IMG/VR virus record: IMGVR_UViG_2609460221_000007 | Location: 1 to 17,058 of that record | DNA from: a virus | Lineage: Duplodnaviria > Heunggongvirae > Uroviricota > Caudoviricetes | Strand: one strand, 5' to 3' | Length of the DNA: 17,058 nucleotides | Shown here: positions 4,033 to 6,225 of the stretch, piece after piece | Position numbering within the stretch: the first letter of the stretch is position 1 | How the letters are laid out: each line of letters starts with the position of its first letter | Program-made: the position numbers and the translations under genes | The notes under the pieces: generated by a model | Databases searched by the model: none | Told to the model about the DNA's origin: nothing | What the model saw: only the letters and a program-made list of their open reading frames with translations

Positions 4033-4151
4033 AACTGCGGGTGCTTGAGGCTATCTGTCTCAGGCATGAACACCAAAAGGCAGATAGAGAAAAGCCCCAG
4101 TTAACATTACGCGTCCTGCAAGACGCTTAACATTAATCTGAGGCCATATCT

Positions 4152-4211
4152 ATGCGACACATAGAGATTAGCCTCTTACGGACCGAAAGGTCAAGGAGAA
4201 GCAGGCTATGA
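4152..4211 (+). CDS. mok-like leader ORF translationally coupled to hok
   Basis: ATG 4152; 19 codons; stop TGA 4209-4211 overlaps the hok ATG (4208-4210). This is the arrangement expected for hok/mok loci. Confidence 0.3.
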   Translation: MRHIEISLLRTERSRRSRL

Positions 4212-4333
4212 AGCAGCAAAAGGCGATGTTAATCGNCCTGATCGTCATCTGTTTAACCGTCATAGTGACGGCACTGGTAACGAGGAAAGACCTCTGCGAG
4301 GTACGAATCCGAACTGGCAGACGGAGGCTCTGA
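4208..4333 (+). CDS. hok: Hok/Gef-family type I toxin (HokD/RelF-like)
   Basis: RBS AGGAGA (4193-4198); translation MKQQKAMLI(x)LIVICLTVIVTALVTRKDLCEVRIRTG… matches the Hok/Gef transmembrane core as recalled. The C-terminal tail as written (…RRRL*) differs from recalled homologues and may reflect a 1-nt indel or sequence error. Confidence 0.75.
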   Translation: MKQQKAMLIXLIVICLTVIVTALVTRKDLCEVRIRTGRRRL

Positions 4334-4415: not shown

Positions 4416-4757
4416 CTATTCTTTTTTTGCGGTATAGACTTTTTCGCCTGAGAAGTCTGGAGCTACCCAAAAGTTAATATTAAACTGAGCATCATCGCTT
4501 AGTTCAACACGGTGCCAGTATTGTGGTGGGCTTGTTGCAAAAGCGCCAGCATTAATGACTACTTTTATCTCCGGTTCAGTAGCATTCTCATCAGCAAAAC
4601 CATAATATGTTACAGTACCTTCCATCACGCATAACTGTCCAAAAACACCTGCTGCTGTATTATGATGTGTTAATAACGCTGAAGGTACGTTCTCTTTTGT
4701 GAAGAACGGAGTTGAGCGTTTGATTACCCAGTCTTTAGGAATTCTCTTGTGTGTCAT
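4416..4757 (-). CDS. YeaR-like / DUF1971 family protein (TehB-associated cupin-like domain)
   Basis: Start ATG (MTHKR…) preceded on the minus strand by GGGAGGTG. Translation shows RSTPFF…VMEGTVTYYGFADENATEPE…FNINFWVAP, closely paralleling the recalled E. coli YeaR pattern. Convergent with hok. Confidence 0.6.
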   Translation of the reverse strand: MTHKRIPKDWVIKRSTPFFTKENVPSALLTHHNTAAGVFGQLCVMEGTVTYYGFADENATEPEIKVVINAGAFATSPPQYWHRVELSDDAQFNINFWVAPDFSGEKVYTAKKE

Positions 4758-5124
4758 AACCACCTCCCATAAAACATGCATTATAAATGCACCTTTTTGA
4801 GGGTTATGTCAAGCTGTTATGAAACACATAATTGATATGTTGATTAGAGGAGAAGATAGAATCAATATGGTTGTTTTTCGTATAACTATTTGTTTTACTT
4901 TTAGTTTGTGCATTCTGTGTGTTAGGAATAACTTATTAAAGTTTAACTAAAAAATCTCGATATAGTCCGCATAGATTACTGTTACTGAATCTTATTGTGT
5001 GCATTAGTTGTGTTCTGAAATTTCAATTTAATTACTTATGATATATTTTTAACGATAAATGTTTTCCGGGTGAAAGACAGTGGGGGATGAGATAAGCAAT
5101 ATATCATTAATCTTGATTATTTCC

Positions 5125-5186
5125 AGGATGCCTTTACTGTGCATATAAATAAATCATATACGCATCAAATAATGTAAAGGCATCCT
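5125..5186. repeat. perfect 13-bp inverted repeat (AGGATGCCTTTAC … GTAAAGGCATCCT) with 36-nt AT-rich spacer
   Basis: Arms at 5125-5137 and 5174-5186 are exact reverse complements, read directly; lies in an ORF-free AT-rich region. Confidence 0.6.
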
Positions 5187-5625
5187 TTTAGATATATCTT
5201 ATCAAATGTTAATGATTTGAGTGGGAAACATGATTCCAGAAACTAATCATGCGGCTACTTTATAAAAATAATGCCCATATAAAACAGCCAGCGAAAAGGA
5301 TTACGGATAAAAAAGGAGCGAGATGTGCATAGTTGTTATTTTCCATGTTTAACCACCTTAAATAATTGATGATGACGGGATGTGCATCTGTAATGCTTTT
5401 GTTGAAATGTTATGATNAAAAAAGAACTTTTTCATAACATTAAAATGTAATTTATCTAATCGTTTTTAATAATAAGTGTTGTATTTCTATCCTTGTATCA
5501 GCTATTTGATATGTAGTGTTTGTTCATGTTATGTGGAGCTTTACACCATAGCCAGTTTATTTATACTTTATTCGTCAGCCTGAACAACTGGCATCTGCTG
5601 CACTGCGCCATCGAGAGATTGAGAA

Positions 5626-6225
5626 ATGGCGCATATACAACTGGTCAAACAAACCTCTTCTGGACTACTTCTCCCGGCGACGCCGGAGAGTTGCGATTTT
5701 TTGCATCAAATCAAAATAGGCGAGTGGATACACGCAGACTTTAAGCGTGTGCGTAACTACGCATTCCACAAGCGTTTTTTCAAACTCCTGCAACTGGGAT
5801 TCGATTACTGGACTCCGGTCGGTGGGGCGATCACGCCTCGCGAACGAAAGCTGGTTTCAGGATTCGTTGATTACCTATGTGAATCAGTAGGCCGGGAACA
5901 TACGCCAGCTCTGAGCGAAGCCGCAGAGCAATATCTGAATACAGTTGCGACACGCAGAACCCGGGATACGGCATTGCTAAAGTCGTTTGAGGCTTTCCGC
6001 GAGTGGGTAACCATTCAGGCCGGATTTTACACCGAGCATCTTTATCCTGATGGTAGCCATGGGCGTCGGGCGAAATCCATCGCTTTTGCGAATATGGACG
6101 AAACCGAGTTTCAGCAGGTTTATAAATCTGTTCTGAATGTGCTGTGGAACTGGATTCTGTTCCGTAAATTTTCCTCTCCGGAACAAGTCGAAAATGTGAC
6201 CGCGCAGCTGCTGGAGTTTGCGTAA
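5626..6225 (+). CDS. lambdoid nin-region protein (possibly DUF1367 family)
   Basis: 199-aa ORF immediately upstream of and abutting the ybcO-like gene; GC content returns to the phage-core level. Family assignment is from memory of the gene order in lambdoid prophages. Confidence 0.55.
   Translation: MAHIQLVKQTSSGLLLPATPESCDFLHQIKIGEWIHADFKRVRNYAFHKRFFKLLQLGFDYWTPVGGAITPRERKLVSGFVDYLCESVGREHTPALSEAAEQYLNTVATRRTRDTALLKSFEAFREWVTIQAGFYTEHLYPDGSHGRRAKSIAFANMDETEFQQVYKSVLNVLWNWILFRKFSSPEQVENVTAQLLEFA

What the first reader, a model, noticed from the sequence alone, without database searches (positions are those of the whole stretch)
4790..5625. About 830 bp AT-rich ORF-free divergent intergenic region containing a perfect 13-bp inverted repeat and a second 10-bp palindrome
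No credible ORF is present between the YeaR-like gene (minus strand) and the nin-region gene (plus strand); the only overlapping ORF-track entry, 5520-5744, is rejected as spurious. The sequence is very AT-rich and contains AGGATGCCTTTAC…GTAAAGGCATCCT (5125-5137 and 5174-5186, 36-nt spacer) and AATGTTATGA…TCATAACATT (about 5406-5441). Such a long non-coding block in a compact phage genome suggests dense regulation (divergent promoters, a dimeric regulator site, xenogeneic silencing) or an unannotated small RNA.
Basis: seen in the sequence. Interest (0 to 1): 0.5.

Follow-up and report, generated by a model that had tools for sequence, protein, structure and literature searches.

The report
Prophage gap hides unannotated 28-codon gene
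The "empty" AT-rich gap in this Rac-like E. coli prophage joins two gene cassettes and contains a nitric-oxide-repressor (NsrR) type operator for the neighbouring yeaR-like gene, a conserved but never-annotated 28-codon gene for a tiny membrane peptide, and a conserved promoter-like element for the downstream operon; the two palindromes that drew attention are the least conserved parts.

Summary
The two inverted repeats and the low G+C are real and sit at the stated coordinates. The region is not ORF-free, and the palindromes are not its main content. The gap is 4758-5625, because the DUF1971 gene starts at 4757. It consists of two mosaic modules joined at 5259/5260.

The left module travels with the YeaR-like DUF1971 gene. 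It starts with a very strong NsrR-type 11-1-11 operator (4773-4795, 26.7 bits) that contains a perfect TATAAT. The 13-bp hairpin lies in this module. It is unlikely by chance (P about 0.001), but it is perfect only in this lineage.

The right module travels with the nin/Q-type operon in about 22% of complete E. coli genomes. It has three conserved islands separated by diverged, indel-rich spacers:
- A 28-codon minus-strand ORF (5260-5346) with a Shine-Dalgarno sequence. It encodes a hydrophobic single-helix peptide, is intact in every copy examined, has dN/dS of about 0.23, and is annotated nowhere.
- A 51-nt block (5431-5481) that includes the right arm of the 10-bp palindrome.
- An invariant promoter-like TTTACA-16-TATACT (5540-5567).

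No evidence for a small RNA was found. The function of the peptide is unknown; a prophage membrane micro-protein or a type I toxin are the leading guesses. The finding is of moderate interest.

The parts
4773..4795 (.). NsrR-type operator, an 11-1-11 inverted repeat. On the minus strand it reads AAGGTGCATTTATAATGCATGTT.
   Evidence: It scores 26.7 bits with a matrix built from 18 NsrR sites of E. coli CFT073 (PMC5320621, Table 4). The training sites score 13.8-31.7 and the K-12/CFT073 yeaR site 23.6. The next best site in the window scores 13.7, and none of 2000 shuffles reached 26.7. All variants of the module keep it, at 17.9-28.5 bits.
4780..4785 (-). Perfect -10 hexamer TATAAT inside the operator. 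It is the inferred promoter of the DUF1971 (YeaR-like) gene. The Shine-Dalgarno sequence GGGAGGTGG is at 4760-4768 and the ATG at 4757.
   Evidence: Read directly from the sequence. The gene start follows RefSeq. The protein is 44% identical to K-12 YeaR. The K-12 yeaR upstream region aligns with its NsrR site in register.
4796..5258 (.). Remainder of the left module. It is AT-rich, has no conserved ORF, and travels only with the DUF1971 gene.
   Evidence: It is present in 467 of 5426 E. coli genomes, always unannotated, at one place per genome. There are three main variants, and the commonest lacks 57 bp (about 5072-5128). Every ORF of at least 20 aa is broken in some variants, or lacks a Shine-Dalgarno sequence.
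5125..5186 (+). Hairpin formed by the 13-bp inverted repeat, with TTTTAGAT following on the plus strand. It is a possible plus-strand terminator or transcriptional insulator.
   Evidence: Searches give P of about 0.001. It folds at -24.7 kcal/mol on the plus strand and -28.6 on the minus strand, with z-scores of -5.4 and -6.2. Variants keep 10-13 Watson-Crick pairs, and the changes do not tell the two strands apart.
5229..5251 (-). Hairpin with a 7-bp stem (CATGATT/AATCATG), 8 nt after the stop of the small ORF and followed by UUU on the minus strand. It is a weak terminator candidate.
   Evidence: Read directly from the sequence. In other contexts the ORF is followed within about 25 nt by the hok or iteS terminator hairpin instead.
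5259..5260 (.). Mosaic junction between the left and right modules. It falls exactly at the stop codon of the small ORF.
   Evidence: All matches in the 60-80% identity band begin at query position 478 or 15, which is window 5259. Three kinds of left neighbour occur: DUF1971, hok/sok and IteAS.
5260..5346 (-). Unannotated 28-codon ORF, MENNNYAHLAPFLSVILFAGCFIWALFL. The N-terminus is polar and residues 10-28 form a hydrophobic helix.
   Evidence: 201 copies were fetched (some contigs twice), giving 19 unique DNA sequences and 15 peptides. All are exactly 28 codons, with no indels or stops, and this is the only frame open in all of them. Variable sites by codon position are 6/10/13, and mean dN/dS is about 0.23. 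Mean Kyte-Doolittle hydropathy is +2.3 to +2.6 for residues 10-28 and -1.2 to -1.8 for residues 1-9. No match was found in Pfam, NCBIfam, PHROGs, PADLOC or PDB. The exact sequence is absent from a collection of 15 billion proteins. No listed RefSeq row annotates it.
5353..5359 (-). Shine-Dalgarno sequence AAGGTGG, 6 nt upstream of the ATG of the small ORF.
   Evidence: The variants are AAGGTGG, AAGGTGA, AAAGTGA and AAAGCGA, all at the same spacing.
5406..5441 (-). The 10-bp inverted repeat. Its 8-bp core, ATGTTATG/CATAAYAT, is kept in both clades.
   Evidence: In the RNAalifold consensus all 8 pairs are kept in 9 sequences. One pair varies G-C to G-U, which is tolerated only on the minus-strand RNA. 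The left arm and loop are only 52% identical between clades.
5431..5481 (.). Block b, the most conserved non-coding island. It lies 85-135 nt upstream of the small ORF and is inferred to be that ORF's promoter or 5' leader.
   Evidence: It is 89% identical between clades with no gaps, while the flanking spacers are 46-52% identical and have indels. It contains TATTAT on the minus strand (5474 to 5469). That hexamer has a usable -35 only in clade B.
5534..5604 (+). Block c. It holds the promoter-like TTTACA-16-TATACT (5540-5567), which would put the transcription start near 5574, and a leader core CAGCCTGAACAACTGGCATCTGCTGC.
   Evidence: The element matches the consensus at 10 of 12 positions and is the top-scoring plus-strand site in all five representatives. 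It is invariant in the alignments. The block is 83% identical between clades. Conservation continues to about 5604 even where the downstream gene is not DUF1367.

Best explanation
The gap is a composite of regulatory DNA and one overlooked gene, formed where two prophage cassettes meet. Its parts are listed from left to right.

(1) 4758-4795 holds a compact promoter for the YeaR-like moron. Its perfect -10 hexamer sits inside an NsrR-type 11-1-11 operator. The gene is therefore most likely repressed by host NsrR and switched on by nitric oxide, as chromosomal yeaR is. This step is inferred from sequence.

(2) 4796-5258 is AT-rich spacer that belongs to the same cassette. The 13-bp hairpin in it most plausibly acts as a transcription stop or insulator between the cassettes. 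This is a weak inference.

(3) 5260-5346, on the minus strand, is a real protein-coding gene for a 28-residue peptide with a single transmembrane helix. It has its own ribosome-binding site. It is transcribed against the lytic direction from within or beyond block b. It is most likely expressed from the prophage and inserts into the inner membrane. The coding status is shown by comparative evidence. The role, either a membrane micro-protein that modulates a host membrane function or a type I toxin, is a guess.

(4) 5534-5604 is a conserved sigma-70-type promoter and leader for the DUF1367-DUF1364-Q-like operon. This is inferred from consensus match and invariance.

The 10-bp palindrome lies in the leader or promoter region of the small gene. 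The mosaic breakpoint at the small gene's stop codon shows that this gene, its upstream region and the operon promoter are inherited as one unit.
For: Two modules with a junction at 5259/5260.

NsrR operator: 26.7 bits, second only to ytfE among known sites. None of 2000 shuffles reached it, and all variants keep it. The gene is 44% identical to YeaR, and the K-12 yeaR NsrR site aligns in register.

Small ORF: always 28 codons and the only frame open in all sequences. Third-position bias is 6/10/13 and dN/dS is about 0.23. Substitutions stay within V/L/F/A/I/C. The Shine-Dalgarno sequence is kept at fixed spacing. The ORF has no indels, while the adjacent spacers have many.

Footprint pattern: identity between clades is 80% for the ORF, 89% for block b and 83% for block c, against 46-52% for the spacers.

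Promoter element: invariant and top-scoring in every clade.

Distribution: the module is in 1177 of 5426 complete E. coli genomes and in 4 induced-phage records.
Against: There is no expression, translation or binding data of any kind. All homologues come from Escherichia or Shigella and form only two main clades, so the substitution statistics rest on few independent events. No convincing, clade-conserved promoter for the small ORF was found. The -35 region of the DUF1971 promoter is poor: a perfect TTGACA lies 21 nt from the -10, which is too far. The hairpin has a 36-nt loop and only four U residues, so the terminator scan did not call it. High conservation of blocks b and c could partly reflect recent recombination rather than selection. 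The left module is less diverse than part of the adjacent coding sequence.
Confidence: 0.6

Rival explanations
1. The small ORF is the toxin of a new type I toxin-antitoxin pair. The conserved block b and the 10-bp hairpin would belong to a long structured 5' leader. A plus-strand transcript from the block b/c region would act as the antisense or divergent antitoxin RNA.
For: The peptide is 28 residues, very hydrophobic, and similar in size to TisB, ShoB, ZorO and DinQ (my own knowledge of those families; hydropathy). A conserved non-coding island lies 85-135 nt upstream, and its hairpin tolerates G-U only on the mRNA strand. RNAalifold proposes a 5-bp pairing of the Shine-Dalgarno sequence with the 5' edge of block b, with G-U/A-U/G-C variation. 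The module often sits next to hok/sok.
Against: No terminator-bounded small RNA gene was found, and plus-strand transcripts from block b or c would run on into the operon. No extended complementarity to the translation start region was seen beyond that 5-bp helix. The Shine-Dalgarno sequence is strong and not clearly sequestered. There is no similarity to any toxin family. Proximity to hok reflects a cargo hotspot, since other neighbours also occur.
Confidence: 0.2
2. The region is purely non-coding: an H-NS-silenced, promoter-rich AT tract. On this view the 28-codon ORF is conserved for DNA- or RNA-level reasons and is not translated.
For: G+C is 29-32%. No annotation pipeline has called any gene here in more than 1000 genomes. 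Many promoter-like hexamers lie on both strands. A 9-of-10 match to the H-NS nucleation motif TCGATAAATT (recalled from memory) lies in block b at 5449-5458.
Against: Gene callers do not report ORFs under 30 codons, so the lack of annotation says little. The ORF shows third-position bias, dN/dS of about 0.23, conservative hydrophobic replacements, a fixed length, a maintained Shine-Dalgarno sequence and start codon, and a recombination breakpoint exactly at its stop codon. No RNA family matches. Matches to the H-NS motif are only mildly enriched: 4 of 29 fall in 5% of the window.
Confidence: 0.15
3. The 13-bp palindrome is the terminator of an unannotated plus-strand small RNA. The RNA would start near 5050, from the promoter-like site CTGAAA-16-TATGAT at 5015-5042, and end near 5192.
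For: The promoter-like site matches the consensus at 9 of 12 positions. The hairpin is strong and is followed by UUUUAGAU on the plus strand only. All variants of the left module retain the hairpin.
Against: Rfam gives no match. The commonest variant deletes 57 nt from the body of the proposed RNA. The loop is 36 nt and the U-tract is short. No covariation tells the two strands apart. The module is found only next to DUF1971 and at one copy per genome.
Confidence: 0.1
4. Both palindromes are operators for a dimeric phage-encoded regulator that controls divergent promoters.
For: Both are exact inverted repeats in this window. The 13-mer is statistically unusual. The hexamer GTTATG/CATAAC is enriched in the gap, with 6 copies against 10 in the other 16 kb.
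Against: The 36-nt spacer is too long for a simple dimer site. Most relatives break the symmetry of the 13-mer. Its half-site does not recur near any other promoter in the window beyond chance expectation. Only one arm of the 10-mer is conserved between clades, and it is not unusual by chance. Its half-site occurs elsewhere only once, with a mismatch.
Confidence: 0.08

Closest known systems
The yeaR-yoaG promoter of E. coli K-12 and CFT073, which is repressed by NsrR and induced by nitrate and NO
   Same: The downstream gene is a DUF1971/YeaR homologue at 44% identity. An 11-1-11 NsrR-type inverted repeat lies at the promoter. The K-12 site aligns in register with this one and the two score similarly, 23.6 against 26.7 bits. 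The consensus and the yeaR site come from PMC5320621.
   Different: This gene is carried on a prophage, stands alone without yoaG, and has a much shorter leader: the operator ends 15 nt from the ATG. No NarL 7-2-7 site was recognised. Binding has not been tested.
Small inner-membrane proteins of E. coli found by targeted small-ORF searches and ribosome profiling, such as YohP, YoaK and YnfS
   Same: It is 28 residues long with one predicted transmembrane helix and its own Shine-Dalgarno sequence. Automatic annotation misses it because of its size.
   Different: It has no sequence similarity to any of them. It is absent from K-12: the Rac, Qin and DLP12 prophages all lack the module. The K-12 ribosome-profiling studies therefore could not have seen it. 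There is no evidence of translation.
Type I toxins with divergent or antisense RNA antitoxins: TisB/IstR-1, ShoB/OhsC, ZorO/OrzO, DinQ/AgrB and Hok/Sok
   Same: Size, hydrophobicity and a conserved non-coding region upstream of the ORF are all shared. It is often located beside hok/sok.
   Different: No antitoxin RNA was identified, no sequence homology exists, the C-terminus carries no charged residues, and toxicity is untested.
Morons of lambdoid phages: independently transcribed AT-rich cargo genes with their own promoter and terminator, such as lambda bor/lom and HK97 gp15
   Same: It is an AT-rich cassette oriented against the lytic transcription direction. It sits at a variable cargo site between the replication genes and the nin/Q region, and its neighbours are swapped by recombination.
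   Different: The small gene is inherited together with the promoter region of the nin/Q operon rather than as a free-standing cassette. Its promoter and terminator are not defined.

Membership tests
NsrR operator (Rrf2-family repressor site) | [quoted passage not shown] | tested here: met
   AAGGTGCATTT-A-TAATGCATGTT matches the ytfE site at 20 of 22 positions. It scores 26.7 bits, within the 13.8-31.7 range of known sites, and none of 2000 shuffles reached that score.
NsrR operator (Rrf2-family repressor site) | Position overlaps the core promoter of the repressed gene | tested here: met
   The operator contains a perfect TATAAT 22 nt upstream of the DUF1971 ATG. The transcription start has not been mapped.
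NsrR operator (Rrf2-family repressor site) | NsrR binding and NO-dependent derepression | not testable with these tools
   This needs ChIP or EMSA and expression assays.
Protein-coding small ORF | Reading frame, start, stop and ribosome-binding site are conserved across diverged relatives | tested here: met
   There are 19 unique sequences in two clades about 80% identical. All have 28 codons and a Shine-Dalgarno sequence at fixed spacing, and the other five frames are closed in 6-19 of the 19 sequences.
Protein-coding small ORF | Substitution pattern of purifying selection on the protein | tested here: met
   Variable sites by codon position are 6/10/13, and dN/dS is about 0.23 (0.16/1.07 for the most distant pair). 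The number of independent events is small.
Protein-coding small ORF | Evidence of translation | not testable with these tools
   No expression data are available. No paper contains the peptide sequence.
Type I toxin-antitoxin system | Small hydrophobic membrane peptide | tested here: met
   Mean hydropathy of residues 10-28 is +2.3 to +2.6.
Type I toxin-antitoxin system | Cis-antisense or divergent small RNA complementary to the toxin mRNA | tested here: inconclusive
   There is no Rfam match and no terminator-bounded RNA. Only promoter-like hexamers were found on the opposite strand.
Type I toxin-antitoxin system | Homology to a known toxin family | tested here: not met
   The Pfam, NCBIfam, PHROGs and PADLOC scans found no toxin family.
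Intrinsic terminator (the 13-bp hairpin) | G+C-rich stem, short loop, then a U-tract | tested here: inconclusive
   The stem is 13 bp with 6 G-C pairs, and TTTTAGAT follows on the plus strand only. The loop is 36 nt, so the terminator scan did not call it.
Known small-RNA or cis-regulatory RNA family | Match to an Rfam covariance model | tested here: not met
   At gathering threshold, sok (4039-4210), outside the region, is the only match in the window. Within 4700-5700 at E<=10 there were only two chance miRNA hits.
Sigma-70 promoter (block c) | -35 and -10 hexamers at 16-18 nt spacing, conserved in relatives | tested here: met
   TTTACA-16-TATACT matches at 10 of 12 positions, is invariant, and is the top-scoring site in all five representatives. 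Activity has not been tested.

The most novel reading that the evidence does not exclude
The 28-residue peptide founds a new, prophage-borne family of membrane-active micro-proteins. It would be either a type I toxin or a factor for superinfection exclusion or lysogenic conversion. It is carried by about one in five E. coli genomes, and no annotation or protein database includes it. It is co-inherited with the promoter region that controls entry into the Q/late-gene operon, which could link its expression to the lysis-lysogeny state.
Probability: 0.25. Interest if true: 0.6.

Novelty: new member of a known kind. Interest (0 to 1): 0.4.

Why it matters
A conserved gene present in about 22% of complete E. 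coli genomes, including clinical lineages, and in inducible phages is missing from every annotation and from a collection of 15 billion proteins. This is one more concrete case of how small ORFs in prophage "intergenic" DNA are systematically overlooked. K-12 lacks the module, so the classical small-protein screens could not have found it.

The NsrR-type operator suggests that a phage cargo gene is wired into the host's nitric-oxide response. That is relevant to life in inflamed gut or urinary tract.

The analysis also shows that eye-catching perfect palindromes can be the least conserved features of such a region. Phylogenetic footprinting pointed elsewhere.

Tried and rejected
It is also below the 30-aa minimum stated for the structure-prediction and representative-search tools.
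- The exact-sequence look-up of five peptide variants found nothing.
- A literature search for three peptide prefixes found nothing. The DUF1367 literature is irrelevant to this region.
- Pfam, NCBIfam, PHROGs, PADLOC and PDB gave only sub-threshold hits to lipoprotein signal peptides, namely Lp6.6 and an Rz1-like spanin. I rejected the lipoprotein idea. The lipobox-like LFAGC occurs only in this lineage; other variants read FVLCC or FACCF. The mature part would be only 8 residues long.
- I considered the K-12 small genes ylcH (DLP12) and rem (Qin) as possible equivalents and rejected both. Their position and strand differ, and there is no homology.
- I rejected the 43-aa ORF 4819-4950, which one of three phage records annotates as hypothetical. 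It has no Shine-Dalgarno sequence, 33 of 42 relatives lose its stop, and its substitutions are about 2 synonymous to 5 non-synonymous.
- I rejected the antisense ORF 5249-5332, because its start lies outside the conserved module and its stop is lost in relatives.
- I looked for the palindromes as a dispersed repeat or MITE and rejected that: there is one place per genome.
- I looked by eye for NarL, FNR, LexA, IHF and boxA/boxB-like sites in the conserved blocks. None was both convincing and conserved.
- Strand assignment of the 13-bp hairpin from its variants failed. Each strand has one wobble and one mismatch.
- The scan of species-representative genomes found the ORF only in Shigella flexneri and Escherichia ruysiae, so no distant homologues were obtained.
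Full report
CONTEXT. The window is a Rac-like lambdoid prophage of E. coli. The flagged region matches more than 1000 complete E. coli genomes and four induced-phage records (vB_EcoS-666R9 and relatives), and none of the listed RefSeq matches has an annotated feature under it. RefSeq annotation of an identical copy gives this gene order: cro/cII-like genes, replication genes, KilA-N (minus strand), hok/sok, DUF1971 (minus strand), the gap, DUF1367, DUF1364, DUF1133 (Q-like), lysis genes, trkG.

OBSERVATION.
- G+C falls to 0.29-0.32 in the gap, against 0.40-0.54 in the flanks.
- The 13-nt repeat is the only inverted repeat of that size in the window. One of 1000 dinucleotide-preserving shuffles of the gap matched it.
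- The 10-nt repeat is within chance expectation, at 13% of shuffles.
- RefSeq starts DUF1971 at 4757, which has the Shine-Dalgarno sequence GGGAGGTGG. The true gap is therefore 4758-5625.
- The N at 5418 is an extra base in an A6 run.

THE GAP IS TWO MODULES. Megablast and blastn hits fall into two classes. Hits to 4758-5258 occur in 467 genomes, always next to DUF1971. Hits to 5259-5625 occur in 1177 genomes. The diverged hits, at 72-78% identity, all begin at window 5259. In those genomes the left neighbour is not DUF1971. It is a hok/sok locus, or the IteA/IteS anti-phage system, or a methyltransferase-nuclease pair followed by hok. The breakpoint coincides with the stop codon of a small minus-strand ORF.

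THE SMALL ORF. ORF 5260-5346 (minus strand) encodes MENNNYAHLAPFLSVILFAGCFIWALFL, with AAGGTGG 6 nt upstream of the ATG. I collected copies in three ways: from E. coli genomes, from two species-representative genomes (Shigella flexneri and Escherichia ruysiae), and from IMG/VR contigs. The IMG/VR contigs were retrieved once by peptide pattern and once independently by a non-coding DNA pattern from the upstream block.
- Of the 80 loci retrieved by the non-coding pattern, 78 carry the ORF intact. The other two are unrelated chance matches.
- Across 201 fetched copies (some contigs were fetched twice) there are 19 unique DNA sequences and 15 peptides. All have exactly 28 codons.
- This is the only one of the six frames that is open in all sequences.
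- Variable sites fall 6/10/13 by codon position. Mean pairwise dN is 0.098 and dS 0.43, a ratio of 0.23.
- Replacements are almost all among V/L/F/A/I/C within residues 10-28. That segment has mean hydropathy of +2.3 to +2.6, behind a polar N-terminus.
- The ORF contains no indels, whereas the adjacent spacers do.
- The Shine-Dalgarno sequence varies (AAGGTGG, AAGGTGA, AAAGTGA, AAAGCGA) but keeps its spacing.

I conclude that this is a genuine protein-coding gene for a peptide with a single transmembrane helix. The caveat is that the family has only two main clades. It matches no Pfam, NCBIfam, PHROGs, PADLOC or PDB entry. The exact sequence is absent from a collection of 15 billion proteins and from the searchable literature. 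K-12 lacks the module in Rac, Qin and DLP12, which explains why the K-12 small-protein screens did not find it.

FOOTPRINT OF THE RIGHT MODULE. Identity between the two clades varies along the module:
- ORF: 80%.
- 5363-5405: 49%.
- Left arm and loop of the 10-bp repeat: 52%.
- Block b (5431-5481): 89%, with no gaps.
- 5482-5533: 46%, with indels.
- Block c (5534-5604): 83%.

Block c contains TTTACA-16-TATACT (5540-5567). It matches the consensus at 10 of 12 positions, is invariant, and is the best plus-strand promoter candidate in all five representative sequences scanned. Conservation of block c persists to about 5604 even in a clade where the downstream gene is a 92-aa ORF followed by a larger (277-294 aa) ORF that I take, from memory and untested, to be YdfU-like, rather than DUF1367. 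In O157-type prophages only the 5577-5625 leader is shared. A core sequence, CAGCCTGAACAACTGGCA(T/C)CTGCTGC, is therefore common to all contexts, and its role is unknown.

No clade-conserved promoter for the small ORF could be named. A TATTAT in block b has a usable -35 only in clade B, and a weaker candidate lies on the minus strand of block c.

THE 10-BP PALINDROME. Only its 8-bp core, ATGTTATG/CATAAYAT, is kept. The right arm is part of block b, and the left arm is in diverged sequence. RNAalifold on the minus strand keeps all eight pairs in nine sequences. One pair changes G-C to G-U, which would be an A-C mismatch on the plus strand. That is a weak hint that the repeat acts as a hairpin in the leader of the small ORF. 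Its half-site does not recur in the window beyond chance.

THE LEFT MODULE AND THE 13-BP PALINDROME. There are three main variants of the module: 100%, about 92%, and about 82% identical, the last lacking 57 bp. The hairpin is retained in all, but it is perfect only in the window's lineage. The other variants have 10-12 Watson-Crick pairs plus a wobble and a mismatch. The changes are symmetric with respect to strand, so they do not reveal which strand matters. The hairpin folds strongly on both strands. Only the plus strand has a following T-run (TTTTAGAT), and the 36-nt loop keeps it out of the terminator scan. The half-site does not recur beyond chance, and Rfam finds nothing. I regard it as a probable transcription stop or insulator between the cassettes, with low confidence. 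No ORF in this module survives comparison.

THE DUF1971 PROMOTER. The sequence at 4773-4795 reads AAGGTGCATTTATAATGCATGTT on the coding strand. I first recognised it from memory as NsrR-like, then tested it with a matrix built from the 18 distinct 11-1-11 sites listed for CFT073 in PMC5320621.
- It scores 26.7 bits, second only to ytfE among the training sites.
- It exceeds the yeaR site itself, which scores 23.6 bits.
- It lies far above the next window site, at 13.7 bits.
- It exceeds all 2000 shuffles, whose maximum was 21.3 bits.

All module variants keep a site of 17.9-28.5 bits, even though this stretch is locally variable. It encloses a perfect TATAAT 22 nt upstream of the ATG. The protein is 44% identical to K-12 YeaR, and the K-12 yeaR upstream region aligns with its NsrR site in register. 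The phage-borne yeaR homologue therefore appears to have kept NO-responsive control. Binding has not been tested.

VERDICT. The most useful result is the unannotated, widely distributed 28-codon gene, followed by the NsrR-type operator. Both are new members of known kinds and of moderate interest.

Noticed in passing
window 4039-4333: A complete hok/sok type I toxin-antitoxin locus lies just left of the DUF1971 gene. Rfam matches sok at 106.7 bits (4039-4210), and RefSeq annotates a Hok/Gef ORF at 4208-4333.
   Followed up: partly
L003:1-2947, L004:1-2895: In relatives, the slot immediately left of the small ORF holds different cargo. One relative has the IteA/IteS anti-phage ATPase-peptidase pair. 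Another has a cytosine methyltransferase, an ATP-dependent nuclease and hok. The site between the replication genes and the nin/Q region is therefore a cargo and defence hotspot.
   Followed up: partly
window 5418: A single ambiguous base (N) is an extra position in an A6 run relative to all near-identical genomes. It is probably a homopolymer-length sequencing ambiguity.
   Followed up: yes
window 4907, 4998, 5138, 5324, 5381: The heptamer TGTGCAT occurs five times on the plus strand within the gap. None of 5000 shuffles reached five copies, and only four more copies occur in the other 16 kb. GTGCATT resembles the NsrR half-site. The copies in the right module are not kept in the other clade. 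This remains unexplained.
   Followed up: partly
window 4755-4760, 4803-4808, 4816-4821, 5409-5414, 5433-5438, 5528-5533: The hexamer GTTATG/CATAAC occurs six times in about 900 nt, against ten times in the rest of the window. It includes both arms of the 10-bp palindrome and a pair that flanks the DUF1971 start. The pair TGTCATAACC/GGTTATGTCA at 4752-4761 and 4802-4811 could pair across the start codon if the transcript extended that far.
   Followed up: no
window 5577-5604: The core CAGCCTGAACAACTGGCA(T/C)CTGCTGC is shared by every context examined. It occurs upstream of DUF1367 in O157-type prophages and upstream of an unrelated 92-aa gene in prophages whose hok end matches K-12 Qin. It may be a leader element or a module-boundary recombination sequence.
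   Followed up: partly
window 4416-4781: The mechanical ORF list starts the DUF1971 gene at 4781. RefSeq and the Shine-Dalgarno sequence support 4757. The longer version would begin inside the NsrR-type operator.
   Followed up: yes
L002 6038-6169 (window 4819-4950): One of three near-identical phage records annotates a 43-aa hypothetical protein here, and the other two do not. Comparison with relatives does not support it as a gene.
   Followed up: yes
L001 10831-12288 (right part of the window): The potassium transporter gene trkG sits directly after the lysis cassette, as in K-12 Rac. K-12 Rac has lost the whole segment studied here.
   Followed up: no
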